From: the human T2T-CHM13v2.0 reference genome, Homo sapiens
Length of the DNA stretch: 64,000 bases
NCBI RefSeq assembly: GCF_009914755.1
Contig: NC_060931.1
Direction: 5' to 3' (one strand)
A program made the position numbers and the translations under genes. Below are positions 7,017 to 13,908 of the stretch, piece after piece (positions within the stretch are counted from its first letter, which is position 1; each line of letters begins with the position of its first letter). The notes below the pieces were generated by a model. It was not told the DNA's origin. It saw only the letters and a program-made list of their open reading frames with translations, and ran no database searches.

Positions 7017-7551
7017 ATAACTCAGGAACTGATAACCAAATGATGATGATGATGATGATCAACCCAGAGGACTGGTTGAATTCGTTGCTCAAACCAGAGA
7101 AAAACACTGTCCTACTAAATGATACTATTTTAAATAAATTGATTGGTCATTACTGTCAAGCAATTGAAGTAATTTGTCCAGATACATATAAAGATGAAGG
7201 TTTTGCTCAAATTCAAGTGAGATTCAACAGCTGAATTAAAGCTATTCAAGAGCCAGATGATGTATAAGTGGCTATAGCAAACTGCAAGACATTTGCTTTT
7301 GTGCATATATCTTCTGCACAGTTTGAAATGTCTCAAGGTAATTTCAAAAAAAGTAAACACCTTCTTCATAAAGCTGTAAAATGTGGAGCAGTACCACTAG
7401 AAATGCTGCAAATTGCCACGCAGAATTGAAACCTCCAACAAAGTAGCTGCTTTCAGCGAAGGAAAAGAGTTCATCAACATTGACAATATTAACTACCCAA
7501 GAATCATTCTCTAGTTCATTGAACATTTACAGAATAGGAACATGCTGTAAT
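7017..7551 (+). pseudogene. Processed pseudogene fragment of TTK/MPS1 kinase (N-terminal TPR region), frameshifted
   Basis: Translates as ...[40 protein letters not shown]...FAQIQVRF and, after a frameshift, [47 protein letters not shown]. This matches recalled TTK NNPEDWLSLLLKLEKNS...NKLIGRYSQAIE...[26 protein letters not shown]. No introns; stops and indels present. Confidence 0.9.
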
Positions 7552-8121: not shown

Positions 8122-9021
8122 AGAAATAAACTTAACCATGGTGAAAAATCTCTAGGATGAAAACTATAAAACACTGATGAAAGAAACTGAAGACACAAAT
8201 AAATGGAAAGTTATCCTGTGTTCATGGATTGAAAGAATTATTTCTTAAATGTTCATACCGTCCAAAGCAATCTGCAGATTCAGTGCAATTCCTATCAAAA
8301 TACCAATGACATTCTTCACAGATAGAAAAAAAAATCCTAAAATTCGTATGTAACCACAAAAGACCTTGAATAGCCAAAGCAATCTTGAGCAAAAAGAACA
8401 AAGCTGGAGGCATCATAATACCTGACTTCAAAATATGCCATAAAACTAAAGTTATAAAAACAGCATGGTACTGGTATAAAAACAGATAGATCAATGGAAC
8501 AGAGAACCCAGGAATAAATCCACACATTTACAGCCAACTGATATTCAACAAAGGCACCAAGAACACACATTTATTGAAAAGAAAGTACAGTCTTTCAATA
8601 AACGATGCTGGGAAAACTGAAAATCCACATGCAGAAGAATGAATTAAACCCTTATCTCCCACCATATACACAAATCAACTCAAGATGAATTAAAGACATA
8701 GATTTAAGACCTGAAACTATGAAACTGCTAGAGGAAACACAGGAGAAATGCTTCATTACATTTATATGGGCAAGAAGTTTATGAACAAGACTTCAAAAGC
8801 ACAGGCAACAAAAGCAAACAATGGGCAAATCAAACTACATCAAACTAAAAAGCTTCTGCACAGCAAAGGAAACAACCGATAGTGAAGCGACAACCTATAG
8901 AATGGGAGAAAATATTATATTTGCAAAGTATACATCCAACAAAGGTTTAATATCTAAAATATAAAAGGAACTCAACTTAATAGTAAGAAAACAAATAACC
9001 CTGTTTAAAAATGGTCAAAAG

Positions 9022-10677
9022 CCCTCTCCCTCTCCCTCTCCCTCTCCCCACGGTCTCCCTCTCCCCACGGTCTCCCTCTCCCTCTCTTTCCACGGTCTCC
9101 CACTGATGCCGAGCCAAAGCTGGACTGTACTGCTGCCATCTCGGCTCACTGCAGCCTCCCTGCCTGATTCTCCTGCCTCAGCCTGCCGAGTGCCTGCGAT
9201 TGCAGGCGCGCGCCACCATGCCTGACTGGTTTTCGTATTTTTTTGGTGGAGACGGGGTTTCGCTGTGTTGGCCGGGCTGGTCTCCAGCTCCTAACTGCGA
9301 GTGATCCGCCAGCCTCGGCCTCCCGAGGTGCCGGGATTGCAGATGGAGTCTGGTTCACTCAGTGCTCAATGGTGCCCAGGCTGGAGTGCAGTGGCGTGAT
9401 CTCGGCTCGCTACAACCTCCACCTCCCAGCCGCCTGCCTTGGCCTCCCAAAGTGCCAAGATTGCAGCCTCTGCCCGGCCGCCACCCCGTCTGGGAAGTGA
9501 GGAGCGTCTCTGCCTGGCCGCCCATCGTCTGGGATGTGAGGAGCCCCTCTGCCTGGCTACCCAGTCTGGAAAGTGAGGAGCGTCTCTGCCCGGCCGCCAT
9601 CCCATCTAGGAAGTGAGGAGCGCCTCTTCCCGGCCACCATCCCATCTAGGAAGTGAGGAGCGTCTCTGCCCGGCCACCCATCGTCTGAGATGTGGGGAGC
9701 GCCTCTGCCGCGCCGCCCCGTCTGGGATGTGAGGAGCGCCTCTACCCGGCCGCGACCCCGTCTGGGAGGTGAGGAGCGTCTCTGCCCAGCCGCCCCGTCT
9801 GAGAAGTGAGGAGACCCTCCGCCTGGCAACTGCCCCATATGAGAAGTGAGGAGCCCCTCCGCCCGGCAGCCACCCCGTCTGGGAAGTGAGGAGCGTCTCT
9901 GCCCGGCAGCCACCCCATCCGGGAGGGAGGTGGGGGTCAGCCCCCGCCAGGCCAGCCGCCCCGTCCGGGAGGGAGGTGGGGGGGTCAGCCCCCCGCCCGG
10001 CCAGCCGCCCCGTCCGGGAGGGAGGTGGGGGGTTCAGCCCCCCGCCCGGCCAGCCGCCCCGTCCGGGAGGTGAGGGGCGCCTCTGCCCGGCCGCCCCTAC
10101 TGGGAAGTGAGGAGCCCCTCTGCCCAGCCACCACCCCGTCTGGGAGGTGTACCCAACAGCTCATTGAGAACGGGCCATGATGACAATGGCGGTTTTGTGG
10201 AATAGAAAGGGGGGAAAGGCGGGGAAAGGATTGAGAAATCGGATGGTTGCCATGTCTGTGTAGAAAGAGGTGGACACGGGAGACTTTTCATTTTGTTCTG
10301 TACTAAGAAAAATTATTCTGCCTTGTGATCCTGTTGATCGGTGACCCTATCCCCAACCCTGTGTTCTCTGAAACATGTGCTGTGTCCACTCAGGGTTAAA
10401 TGGATTAAGGGTGGTGCAAGATGTGCTTTGTTAAACAGATGCTTGAAGGCAGCATGCTCGTTAAGAGTCATCACCACTCCCTAATCTCAAGTACCCAGGG
10501 ACACAAACACTGCGGAAGGCCGCAGGGTCCTCTGCATAGGAAAACCAGAGACCTTTGTTCACTTGTTTATCTGCTGACCCTCCCTCCACTATTGTCCTAT
10601 GACCCTGCCAAATCCCCCTCTGTGAGAAACACCCAAGAATGATCAATAAAAAAAAATTAAAAAAAAAAAAAAAAAAA
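9022..10677 (+). mobile_element. SVA retrotransposon, near full length (subfamily not resolved)
   Basis: (CCCTCT)n head, antisense Alu-like region, GC-rich VNTR (~9470-10145), SINE-R (HERV-K LTR-derived), AATAAA at 10645 and poly(A). Confidence 0.97.
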
Positions 10678-10991
10678 CTGTAAAAAAAAAAAAAAAAAAA
10701 AGCTCCATATTTACAGCTGTAATATCAAATAAAGTGATTATTTTTTACAACCCCCTTAACACCTTTTGGAGATGGCGTTTCTGTTTTCAGAAATTAACGT
10801 AAAATCAAGAAGCAAGATTCCATAAGCTCAGAACTCTGGACAGCTGATCAGGTTTACCTATGGTGCTTTGCCTTTAACTAGAGTGTGTGACGGTAGATTA
10901 TTTCAGATATGTATGTAAGACTGTTTCCTGAACAATAAGATGTATGAAAGGAGCAGAAATAAATAATTTTTCTAATTAAAAAAAAAAAAAA
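10678..10991 (+). other. SVA 3'-transduced unique sequence with its own AATAAA and poly(A)
   Basis: Lies between the SVA poly(A) and the right TSD ATGGTCAAAAG (10993-11003; left copy 9011-9021). Confidence 0.88.
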
Positions 10992-10992
10992 C

Positions 10993-11773
10993 ATGGTCAA
11001 AAGACCTGAATAGACTTCTCAAAAGAAGACAAGCAAATGGCCAACGGGTATATGAAAAAATTTTCAACATCACTAATCATTAAGAAAATGAAAATCAAAA
11101 TCACAATGAAATATCACCTCAGTCACCTCATACCAGTTAAAATGGCCATTACCAAAAAGACAAAAGATTAGCTTTGTTTGGGCCTTTCTTGGAAAAAAAA
11201 AAAAAAAAGACAGAAGGTAAGTGTTGGCAAGGATGCGGAGAAAAAAAAAGCTTTTGTATGCTATTGGAGGAAATGTAAATTAGTATCCCCATTAAGGCAA
11301 ACAGTATGGAGGTTCTTCAAAATATTAAAAATAGAACTAGCATATGATCCAGCAATCCCACTACTGGGTATTTACCCAAAGGAAATGAAATCAGTACATC
11401 AAAAAGGCATCTTGCACTCCCACGTTCACTGTAGCATTATTCATTATAGCCAAGTTATGGAAGCAACCTAAGTGACCATCAAGAGATGAATGGATAAGCA
11501 AAATGGACATATACACAATGGAGTACTATTCAGCAATAAAAAAGAACAAAATCTTGTCATTTGCAACCACATGGATGAACCCCTGGAGAATATTATGTTA
11601 AGTGAAATAAGCCGGGTACAGACAGTACACGATCTCACTTATATTTAGAATCTATAAAAGCAAATCTCATAGGAGATAGTAGAATGGTGGTTACCAGATG
11701 CTTAAGTGTTTGGGGGCAGCGGGGAAGGCAGATCCTGGTCAATGATATATAGTTACAGTTAGATAAAAAGAAC
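10993..11773 (+). mobile_element. L1 (L1MA-like) 3' part, resuming after the SVA
   Basis: GACCTGAATAGAC..., ATATGATCCAGCAATCCCACTACTGGGTAT, TATGTTAAGTGAAATAAGCC, L1MA-type 3' UTR. Confidence 0.88.
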
Positions 11774-11774
11774 T

Positions 11775-12072
11775 GCTGGGTGTGGTGGCTCATGCCTGTG
11801 CTCCTAGCACTTTGGGAGGCCGAGGCAGGCAGATTTCTTGAGCCCAGGAGTTTGAGACCAGCCTGGGCAATGTGGCAAAACCTCATCTCTACAAAAAATA
11901 CAAAAATTAGTTGGGCGCAGTGGCACACACCTGTGGTTCCAGCTACTTGAGAGGGTGAGGCAGGAGGATTGGTTGAGCCCAGGAGTTTGAGACTGCAGTG
12001 AGCCATAATTGTACTACTACACTCCAGCCTGGGGCACAGAGCCAGACCCTGTCTCCCCCAAGAAAAAAAAAA
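11775..12072 (+). mobile_element. AluJ-like element (copy 1 of a local duplication)
   Basis: Dimeric Alu with AluJ diagnostic GAGCCCAGGAGTTTGAG. Confidence 0.88.
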
Positions 12073-12084
12073 GAGCTAAAAACC

Positions 12085-12360
12085 AGAATAGGCAAATATA
12101 TAGAGACAGATATTAGACAAGTAATTGCCTGGGGCCAGGAGGTATATGGTGGGGGAGAGCAGAATAAGGGAGAAGAGAAAAATGAAAAATGATTACTTAT
12201 GGTTAAGAAGTTTCTTTACTGGGTGATGAAAATGTTCTAAAATTGATAGTGGTGATGGTTGTACAACTCTGAGAACATACTAAAAACCACTAGACAGTCT
12301 ATTTTAAATGGTTGAATTGTGTGATATGTGAATTATATCTCAATACAGCTGTTTTAAAAA
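12085..12360 (+). mobile_element. L1MB-like 3' end
   Basis: GATGAAAATGTTCTAAAATTGATAGTGGTGATGGTTGTACAACTCTG...GAATTATATCTCAATA. Confidence 0.8.
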
Positions 12361-12735
12361 GTTCTGAATTGTTATTTCTTCAAAACGATGGATGCTTTGC
12401 TAAATTGGCAACATACACTAAGAACATGAATGTCATTAAATACCTTTGCCTAGTGGCTGAACCAGAATCCCAACCCCAGGACTACTGTTGAGGCCACATT
12501 CTAGGTCCCCAAGAGTGGGCTCCTTCACACCAGGCACAGTACCTCACTATAAACTCAGCCTACAGACCTGATGGCCAAGCAGTTCCCTGCTGGGCCAAGG
12601 AAGGGCTGGAGGAGGATGGCAGGGCCACTTGGATGCTAGCCAGGAGCAACTGGAATGGGAAATTCTTAAGTGTCTCTGATATGGCACAGAATGACCTCAA
12701 AACTCAGGTGATAAAATTCTTGGATAAAAAGAATT

Positions 12736-13029
<294 letters not shown>

Positions 13030-13908
13030 CTAAAAGCCAGAATAGGCAAATATATAGAGATAGATATTAGACAAGTAATTGCCTGGGGCTAGGAGGTATA
13101 TGCTGCGGGAGAGCAGAACAAGGGAGAAGAGAAAAGATGTGCGTACCAAAAGGATGTGAGGCCCTGAGCCCAGGGCAGGTAAGGCATGGGACTGCCTTAT
13201 TTTACCCTGGCATTTAGGACAGTACTCCACAAACCACAAATTCTTATAAATCACAGCCAGTGAAAGTATGCTCAAAATCCAGAAAGCTCTTTTAAAAAAG
13301 GTCTCAACACTTTGAGATGTTAGTCTTGAAATAAGTTAATGTTTCAAATTATATTCATTCCTTTAAATGGATTAAATTGCTATTTCTTGACCCGGCAAAA
13401 TTTTACCTTGGTAGATCATTCAATAAAGCAGCACTGTGCCCTTCTCTAAGTCTGTGGTGTTGTACCGGCTCCTGCCATCATTTTTCACAGCTCTTTGAGG
13501 AGCAAAGAGGTGGAGGACTTGGTAGACACTAAGTAGCAAGTTGTGATAAGAATCAGAAACAGACACCAACTTCTTGAATCTCAACTAAGGTTTCTTTAGC
13601 CACATTCTACACAAAGATAAAATCTTAAGCCATTCATTAAAATCTTCAAAATTATATGTATTTGATAATAAACATCACATAGAGCAAATGGTTAAGTCAC
13701 TAACACATTCTCTTTAACAGCAATTTCAGTTTTATAAAACTACTTTCAGATATTGTTTCATTTTGTATCATGATTTTTAAGTTTTCTCACTGCAGCTGGA
13801 ATTAATTTCGTTACAATGAGAGGAGGAAGGGTTTAAAAATTAAAACGGTGTCTTCTAATTTTAAAATGTTAATTTAACAAAATATTCCATCCTATTTCAA
13901 CATTATTA

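What the first reader, a model, noticed from the sequence alone, without database searches (positions are those of the whole stretch)
9007..11003. SVA with a ~280-bp 3' transduction that looks like an mRNA 3' end
Seen: the TSD ATGGTCAAAAG (9011-9021 and 10993-11003, with an L1-endonuclease-type TT/AAAA at 9005-9010) brackets the SVA plus extra DNA. The order is SVA poly(A), CTGT, a second A-run, unique sequence 10702-10977 with AATAAA at 10728 and 10958, then a third poly(A). The host L1 resumes exactly after the TSD. From knowledge: SVAs read through their poly(A) signal and carry 3' flanks. Inference: the source SVA sits next to a gene 3' UTR or a processed-pseudogene tail, and the stacked A-tails suggest more than one round of mobilisation. 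The tag should identify the source locus and sibling insertions. I could not identify the donor gene.
Basis: partly seen in the sequence, partly recalled or inferred. Interest (0 to 1): 0.7.

Follow-up and report, generated by a model that had tools for sequence, protein, structure and literature searches.

The report
SVA carrying a source-less OSTC-pseudogene tail
A young human jumping element (SVA) on chromosome 7 carries the last 276 bases of an OSTC pseudogene from chromosome 6, likely picked up by read-through from a parent SVA that once sat in that pseudogene and is missing from this genome; this is a known kind of event, traced here to its donor.

Summary
Observation confirmed. One target-site duplication (9011-9021 / 10993-11003) brackets a full-length SVA plus a 276-bp tag, and the host L1 resumes in register. 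The donor is now identified. The tag is 276/278 identical to the 3' end of an intronless OSTC processed pseudogene on chr6 (160.087 Mb), but only 93% identical to the spliced OSTC gene on chr4. There is no SVA in 60 kb around the donor, and the junction 24-mer occurs only at chr6 and chr7. The tag starts exactly at the donor's TT/A10 run, an L1-endonuclease-type site, and a chr19 paralogue took an Alu at the homologous spot. The SVA is a published hs_SVA_D4 element, listed without a chimpanzee or gorilla orthologue. Four D4 relatives carry another 3' tag whose chr2 origin also lacks an SVA. Best reading (~0.62): 3' transduction from a vanished or rare source SVA inside the pseudogene. Rivals: template switch from pseudogene RNA to SVA RNA at the A-run (~0.22), or two sequential insertions (~0.08). 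Both leading mechanisms are in print. I found no paper on this case. No function is shown.

The parts
9007..9021 (+). 5' target-site duplication (exact core 9011-9021; 15 bp with one mismatch), behind a TT/AAAA endonuclease-type site
   Evidence: (D11)
9022..9101 (+). SVA CCCTCT hexamer region (intact 5' end, no 5' transduction)
9102..9465 (+). SVA Alu-like domain (boundaries approximate)
   Evidence: (matches Alu-type repeats)
9466..10149 (+). SVA VNTR (about 40-bp and 49-bp units)
10150..10650 (+). SINE-R with poly(A) signal AATAAA at 10645; hs_SVA_D4 diagnostic bases; 4 differences from the published D4 consensus (10272, 10315, 10350, 10364)
   Evidence: consensus compared by eye
10648..10677 (+). 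first A-tail, interrupted by TT at 10657-10658
10678..10681 (+). CTGT spacer of unassigned origin (possibly the TSD remnant of an earlier source element)
10682..10701 (+). second A-run (A20); its last 10 A's match the A10 run of the chr6 donor
10702..10977 (+). 3' terminal 276 bp of the OSTC processed pseudogene at G000:C6:160086583-160086860(-); substitutions at 10719 and 10829; AATAAA at 10728 and 10958
10978..10991 (+). third A-tail, starting exactly where the donor's own A-tail starts
10993..11003 (+). 3' target-site duplication
11004..11300 (+). host old L1 resuming in register (its upstream part is about 8140-9021; extents approximate)

Best explanation
One target-site duplication on chr7 encloses a full-length SVA_D4 plus the last 276 bp of the chr6 OSTC pseudogene, and these were likely copied as one read-through RNA from a parent SVA that is inferred to have sat in the pseudogene's A10 run and is absent from this genome. 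Steps: (1) shown: an OSTC mRNA copy lies on chr6 with its own 16-bp TSD and a private TT/A10 run 276 bp before its end. (2) inferred: a D4 SVA inserted at that TT/AAAA site in an ancestral human chromosome, in the pseudogene's sense. (3) inferred: its transcript passed the SVA poly(A) signal and ended at the OSTC-derived AATAAA. (4) hallmarks shown, enzymes from established knowledge: L1 proteins inserted that RNA into an old L1 on chr7 by target-primed reverse transcription. (5) inferred: the chr6 source allele was lost by drift or is rare, while the chr7 daughter persisted. The product is most likely an inert passenger.
For: Tag 276/278 identical to chr6 vs 93% to the chr4 gene. It sides with chr6 against the gene at 19 columns, 9 of them private among the 7 aligned sequences. 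The junction is exactly TT/A10-G, the L1-endonuclease consensus (consensus from knowledge). The chr19 paralogue carries an independent ~330-bp Alu insertion with TSD at the homologous spot. The donor is a pseudogene rather than the parent mRNA, which favours a genomic neighbour over an abundant RNA (inference). Tag and SVA have aged alike: 2/278 vs 4/497, Fisher p=1 (little power). Lost sources occur in this subfamily: 4 D4 copies share a ~225-bp 3' tag from chr2:85.52 Mb, with no SVA in the 3.2 kb fetched there. PMC12593883 section 10 finds sources for 84% of transduction-bearing SVAs and infers lost or rare sources for the rest.
Against: The defining element, an SVA at the donor site, is absent in CHM13, and no sibling carries the tag, so the source is postulated. 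It was not found in the supplements of PMC12593883 (35 genomes; name and recalled-coordinate searches). An A-run at the junction is equally what a poly(A)-to-oligo(A) template switch predicts. The pseudogene name appears as a transcript on a blood-cell microarray (PMC6402526, one table passage), so donor RNA may exist. AAAAG(C) is present at both ends of the SVA proper, which a sequential-insertion model would expect.
Confidence: 0.62

Rival explanations
1. Template switch in one insertion event. L1 reverse transcriptase primed on the poly(A) of an RNA from the chr6 pseudogene and copied 276 nt to the internal A10 run. The resulting T-run then paired with the poly(A) of a D4 SVA RNA, which was copied in full. 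No SVA ever sat at chr6.
For: No SVA at the donor and no siblings. The junction falls exactly in an A-run that only the chr6 copy has among the 7 aligned sequences, which would explain why the pseudogene and not the OSTC mRNA was used. Precedent: PMC12593883 section 9 proposes a template switch for SVA-CKS1BP. The pseudogene name is listed as a transcript.
Against: It needs a probably scarce pseudogene RNA and an SVA RNA at the same nick (inference). The published case lacked a poly(A) at the junction, whereas here A20 exceeds the donor's A10. The site is a consensus endonuclease target that was independently hit in a paralogue.
Confidence: 0.22
2. Two sequential insertions at chr7. First came a 5'-truncated retrocopy of the pseudogene RNA, joined by AAAAG microhomology. 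Then the SVA entered the TC/AAAAG junction with a 5-6-bp TSD.
For: AAAAGC lies both at the left junction (9017-9022) and at the start of the tag (10698-10703). No source SVA is needed.
Against: A 5-6-bp TSD is short for SVA (from knowledge). The left side is fully explained by the long TSD plus a usual D4 start: G followed by C(C/T)CTC in at least 3 of 8 D4 5' ends printed. The right side is fully explained by donor sequence. It needs a second hit at one exact base, and the two parts show no age gap (weak).
Confidence: 0.08
3. Two-hop chain: the chr7 element descends from the vanished chr2:85.52 Mb source (whose flank begins AAAAACTG) through the vanished chr6 intermediate, with CTGT as the remnant of the first hop. 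This adds to the best explanation rather than replacing it.
For: Among 27 other tails printed (26 readable), A-run+CTG occurs only in chr2-tag group members, 4 printed. PMC12593883 notes very short transductions that are source TSDs.
Against: The fourth base differs (CTGT vs CTGG). Three chr2-tag members share A at window position 9324 and chr7 does not. AAACTG follows 72 SVA tails genome-wide, so chance is not remote. The SINE-R tree is a star with no resolving power.
Confidence: 0.25

Closest known systems
SVA 3' transductions with no recoverable source element (PMC12593883, sections 9-10 read)
   Same: TSD encloses SVA plus unique tag plus poly(A); the tag maps to one origin locus where no SVA is found; a lost or rare source is inferred (their chr13 SVA_D case).
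   Different: This is a reference-genome D4 element, not one of their non-reference insertions; the origin lies inside a processed pseudogene's 3' UTR, so the tag ends at a true mRNA poly(A) site.
SVA-CKS1BP chimera (PMC12593883, section 9)
   Same: An SVA_D joined 5' to a 5'-truncated mRNA-derived sequence within one TSD; human-specific.
   Different: CKS1BP has no poly(A) at the junction, is close to full length and has 3 copies; here there is an A20 junction, only 3' UTR, one copy, and the donor is a specific pseudogene rather than the parent mRNA.
hs_SVA_D4 subfamily (PMC6139936, sections 5 and 11 and supplementary files 2-3 searched)
   Same: Diagnostic SINE-R bases match; the element is listed as hs_SVA_D4 chr7:47999470-47999966 (hg19) with empty ape columns.
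   Different: That row has no observation about a transduction.
AMAC/SLC35G gene copies made by SVA 3' transduction (recalled; the paper was not held, nothing read)
   Same: SVA read-through carrying gene-derived sequence.
   Different: Those carry a whole coding gene; this tag is 276 bp of non-coding 3' UTR.

Membership tests
SVA retrotransposon | hexamer, Alu-like, VNTR, SINE-R, poly(A) in order | tested here: met
SVA retrotransposon | TSD and endonuclease-type site | tested here: met
hs_SVA_D4 | D4 diagnostic SINE-R substitutions | tested here: met
   Consensus compared by eye: 4 differences in about 497 bp; row found (hg19 position predicted to within about 10 bp from recalled HUS1 coordinates)
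hs_SVA_D4 | absent from chimpanzee and gorilla | not testable with these tools
   No ape genomes held; 39 of 39 D4 rows have empty ape columns in PMC6139936 file 2
SVA 3' transduction | one TSD encloses element, tag and terminal poly(A) | tested here: met
SVA 3' transduction | tag maps to a single origin locus | tested here: met
   chr6 99% vs next best 93%; junction 24-mer at 2 places only
SVA 3' transduction | source SVA directly upstream of the tag at the origin | tested here: not met
   No VNTR or SINE-R hit better than E=0.08 in chr6:160,066,001-160,126,000; so filed only as an inferred, source-less transduction
SVA 3' transduction | tag absent from the pre-insertion allele | not testable with these tools
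   Needs ape or empty-allele sequence; the L1 register is consistent with it
Template-switch chimera (SVA-CKS1BP type) | no poly(A) between the joined parts | tested here: not met
   A20 at the junction; this does not exclude a switch onto poly(A)
Template-switch chimera (SVA-CKS1BP type) | 3' part derives from an RNA present in germ cells | not testable with these tools
   Only a blood-cell microarray listing of the recalled name
Processed pseudogene (chr6 donor) | intronless mRNA copy with A-tail and own TSD | tested here: met
   Uninterrupted 149-codon frame matching OSTC, E=5e-89; 16-bp TSD and A-tail

The most novel reading that the evidence does not exclude
No SVA ever stood at chr6: L1 reverse transcriptase jumped from an internal oligo(A) of a pseudogene RNA onto the poly(A) of an SVA RNA. 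If so, some 'source-less 3' transductions' are RNA-RNA chimeras that mimic lost source elements, and counts of extinct SVA sources are inflated.
Probability: 0.22. Interest if true: 0.55.

Novelty: new member of a known kind. Interest (0 to 1): 0.3.

Why it matters
It is a clean, traceable record of how young human SVAs move gene-derived 3' ends. It points to two exact addresses (the chr6 OSTC-pseudogene A10 run and chr2:85.52 Mb) where active SVA_D4 elements likely once stood, which pangenome and archaic genomes can test directly. It also shows how a lost-source transduction and a poly(A) template switch leave almost the same footprint. No effect on HUS1, PKD1L1 or OSTC is shown; the tag is non-coding.

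Tried and rejected
Direct copy from OSTC mRNA: rejected (93% vs 99%; 19 columns side with chr6). Source SVA near the donor: none in 60 kb; none within 1.5 kb of the other 10 matches either. Siblings: none. Parent SVA with the same tail plus CTGT: the tail pattern matched only chr7. A looser pattern gave 72 tails with AAACTG; 12 of the 72 were fetched and none is D4 (0-1 of 11 diagnostics). One of them (chr6:43.25 Mb) reads A-run+CTGT but is only 91% identical. Descent from the chr2 source: suggested by CTG, not supported by the 9324 marker (the chr19 and chr5:84.8 Mb VNTR alignments there were partial or unreliable). The SINE-R tree of 50 elements was uninformative within D4. Literature: 'OSTCP1' word-start gave rice genes in the 20 listed of 210; whole-word with 'pseudogene' gave 1 paper. 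SVA+retrotransposon+OSTC+transduction gave 0 OSTC occurrences in the 25 listed of 425. SVA+HUS1+PKD1L1 showed nothing on this element in the 15 listed of 28. The 2006 SVA transduction survey and the T2T repeat paper were not held, and the supplement of PMC9311842 and the main tables of PMC10681720 could not be seen; any of these may list this event.

Full report
Observation. The structure is as described: TT/AAAA, TSD at 9011-9021, hexamers, Alu-like domain, VNTR 9466-10149, SINE-R, AATAAA at 10645, A-tail, CTGT, A20, 276 unique bases, A14, TSD at 10993-11003. The 11-mer occurs only at these two places in the window. Against an L1 in the flank of locus L030, the left and right flanks join in register, so everything between the TSDs is inserted DNA.

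Donor. A genome search with 10702-10979 gave 11 matches from 10 scored candidates: self, chr6:160,086,583-160,086,860(-) at 99%, chr4:111.97 Mb at 93%, and eight more at 75-94% (two are halves of one interrupted copy). The chr6 match differs at 2 of 278 bases (10719, 10829). It is the 3' end of an intronless copy with an unbroken 149-codon frame that matches OSTC in solved structures (E=5e-89; OST3_OST6) and has its own 16-bp TSD and A-tail. The chr4 match is preceded by a splice acceptor and intronic DNA, so it is the parent gene's last exon. The name OSTCP1 for the chr6 copy is recalled, not from a call. The tag sides with chr6 against the gene at 19 columns, 9 private among 7 aligned sequences, and ends where the donor's A-tail begins.

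No source, no siblings. In 60 kb around the donor (about 20 kb downstream, 39 kb upstream) neither VNTR nor SINE-R has a hit better than E=0.08. None of the other matches has SVA sequence within 1.5 kb. The junction 24-mer, with one mismatch allowed, occurs only at chr6 and chr7.

The junction. The donor reads TTCTT, A10, GCTCC, and the chr7 tag starts at that A-run. The other aligned copies have interrupted A-rich sequence there. TT/AAAA is the L1 endonuclease consensus (established knowledge). In the chr19 paralogue an Alu (recognised by eye) with a TSD sits at the homologous spot, so this position is a usable target.

The SVA. Of 40 scored candidates, the nearest relatives are chr1:23.69, chr2:38.41 and chr17:19.39 Mb, with 33, 33 and 39 differences in 1,546 bp. 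A diagnostic 56-mer found 24 places. PMC6139936 supplementary file 2 lists hs_SVA_D4 at hg19 chr7:47999470-47999966 with empty chimpanzee and gorilla columns; all 39 D4 rows are so. I matched that row to this element by a coordinate estimated from recalled HUS1 positions and by the D4 consensus (4 differences by eye). Tag decay (2/278) and SINE-R decay (4/497) do not differ (low power).

A second empty source. The chr1 relative carries its own ~225-bp 3' tag, shared with SVAs at chr12:75.92, chr19:6.35 and chr5:84.80 Mb. Its origin is chr2:85.52 Mb, where the sequence runs on without poly(A) and no SVA lies in the 3.2 kb fetched. Copies at matching positions are listed as D4. That flank begins AAAAACTGG, which resembles chr7's A-run+CTGT. 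Against a link: the fourth base differs, three group members share 9324A that chr7 lacks, and 72 SVA tails genome-wide contain AAACTG. I leave CTGT unassigned.

Mechanism. Best: 3' transduction from a D4 source in the pseudogene's A10 run that is now lost or rare (0.62). It explains the endonuclease-type junction, the choice of a pseudogene over the parent mRNA and the end at the OSTC poly(A) site, and it has a parallel within the subfamily. Rival: template switch from pseudogene RNA to SVA poly(A) (0.22); it explains the missing source and lack of siblings. Third: sequential insertion with a 5-6-bp TSD (0.08), prompted by AAAAGC on both sides of the SVA proper, but each side is explained otherwise. 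These odds are my judgement, not computed.

What is known. PMC12593883 (abstract, sections 9 and 10, passages, supplement searches) reports sources for 84% of transduction-bearing polymorphic SVAs, infers lost or rare sources for the rest, and proposes a template switch for SVA-CKS1BP. It has no mention of OSTC in text or the two supplements searched. PMC9132208 (passages) describes an orang-utan SVA transduction without identifiable source. PMC9311842 (passages) gives SVA 3' transductions of 7-995 bp, median 71; its supplement was not readable. PMC10681720 (passages; one 7-kb supplement searched, no hit). PMC6402526 (one table passage) lists OSTCP1 on a microarray; PMC9333335 (passages) lists an OSTC-like protein. 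Searches turned up no account of this insertion's tag, but older surveys of reference SVA transductions were not held and may list it.

Verdict. Real, now traced to its donor, and a new instance of a known kind. The classical definition fails on one tested point (no source SVA at the origin), so it is filed as a source-less, inferred 3' transduction. No function is shown. The element lies between the annotated PKD1L1 5' end (4591) and HUS1 3' end (13574), outside the listed exons and functional elements (hub table). Interest 0.3.

Noticed in passing
window 7040-7550 (+): A decayed, spliced fragment of the TTK (MPS1) kinase N-terminus: 64 residues match TTK structures (E=2.6e-19) and the DNA hits four separate exon-sized pieces at chr6:81.216-81.220 Mb (79-89%). 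It lies directly before L1 ORF2-like sequence, so it may be an old mRNA-L1 chimera or a retrocopy inside the host L1.
   Followed up: partly
G000:C2:85523190-85523412 (L050); daughters L049, L051, L052, L053: A four-member hs_SVA_D4 3' transduction group whose origin on chr2 has no SVA in CHM13: a second vanished source element.
   Followed up: partly
L002:2096-2545 (-), chr6:160.087 Mb: The donor OSTC pseudogene keeps an unbroken 149-codon frame; a CpG-island-like stretch lies about 27 kb upstream at 160,114,751-160,115,750.
   Followed up: partly
L006:1165-1500 (chr19:56.70 Mb): An Alu with TSD inserted in this OSTC paralogue at the spot homologous to the chr7 junction.
   Followed up: yes
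L046, chr12:75.918 Mb: This D4 element's SINE-R is split by an insertion of about 280 bp with Alu-like sequence on the opposite strand.
   Followed up: no
window about 11760-12185 and 12720-13140: A local duplication of an Alu plus its downstream flank, about 960 bp apart, just beyond the HUS1 3' end (seen by eye).
   Followed up: no
G000:C17:47.18, 47.40 and 65.74 Mb; C13, C14, C15, C21, C22 short arms: Near-identical SVA tails recur at these places, as expected for segmental duplications.
   Followed up: no
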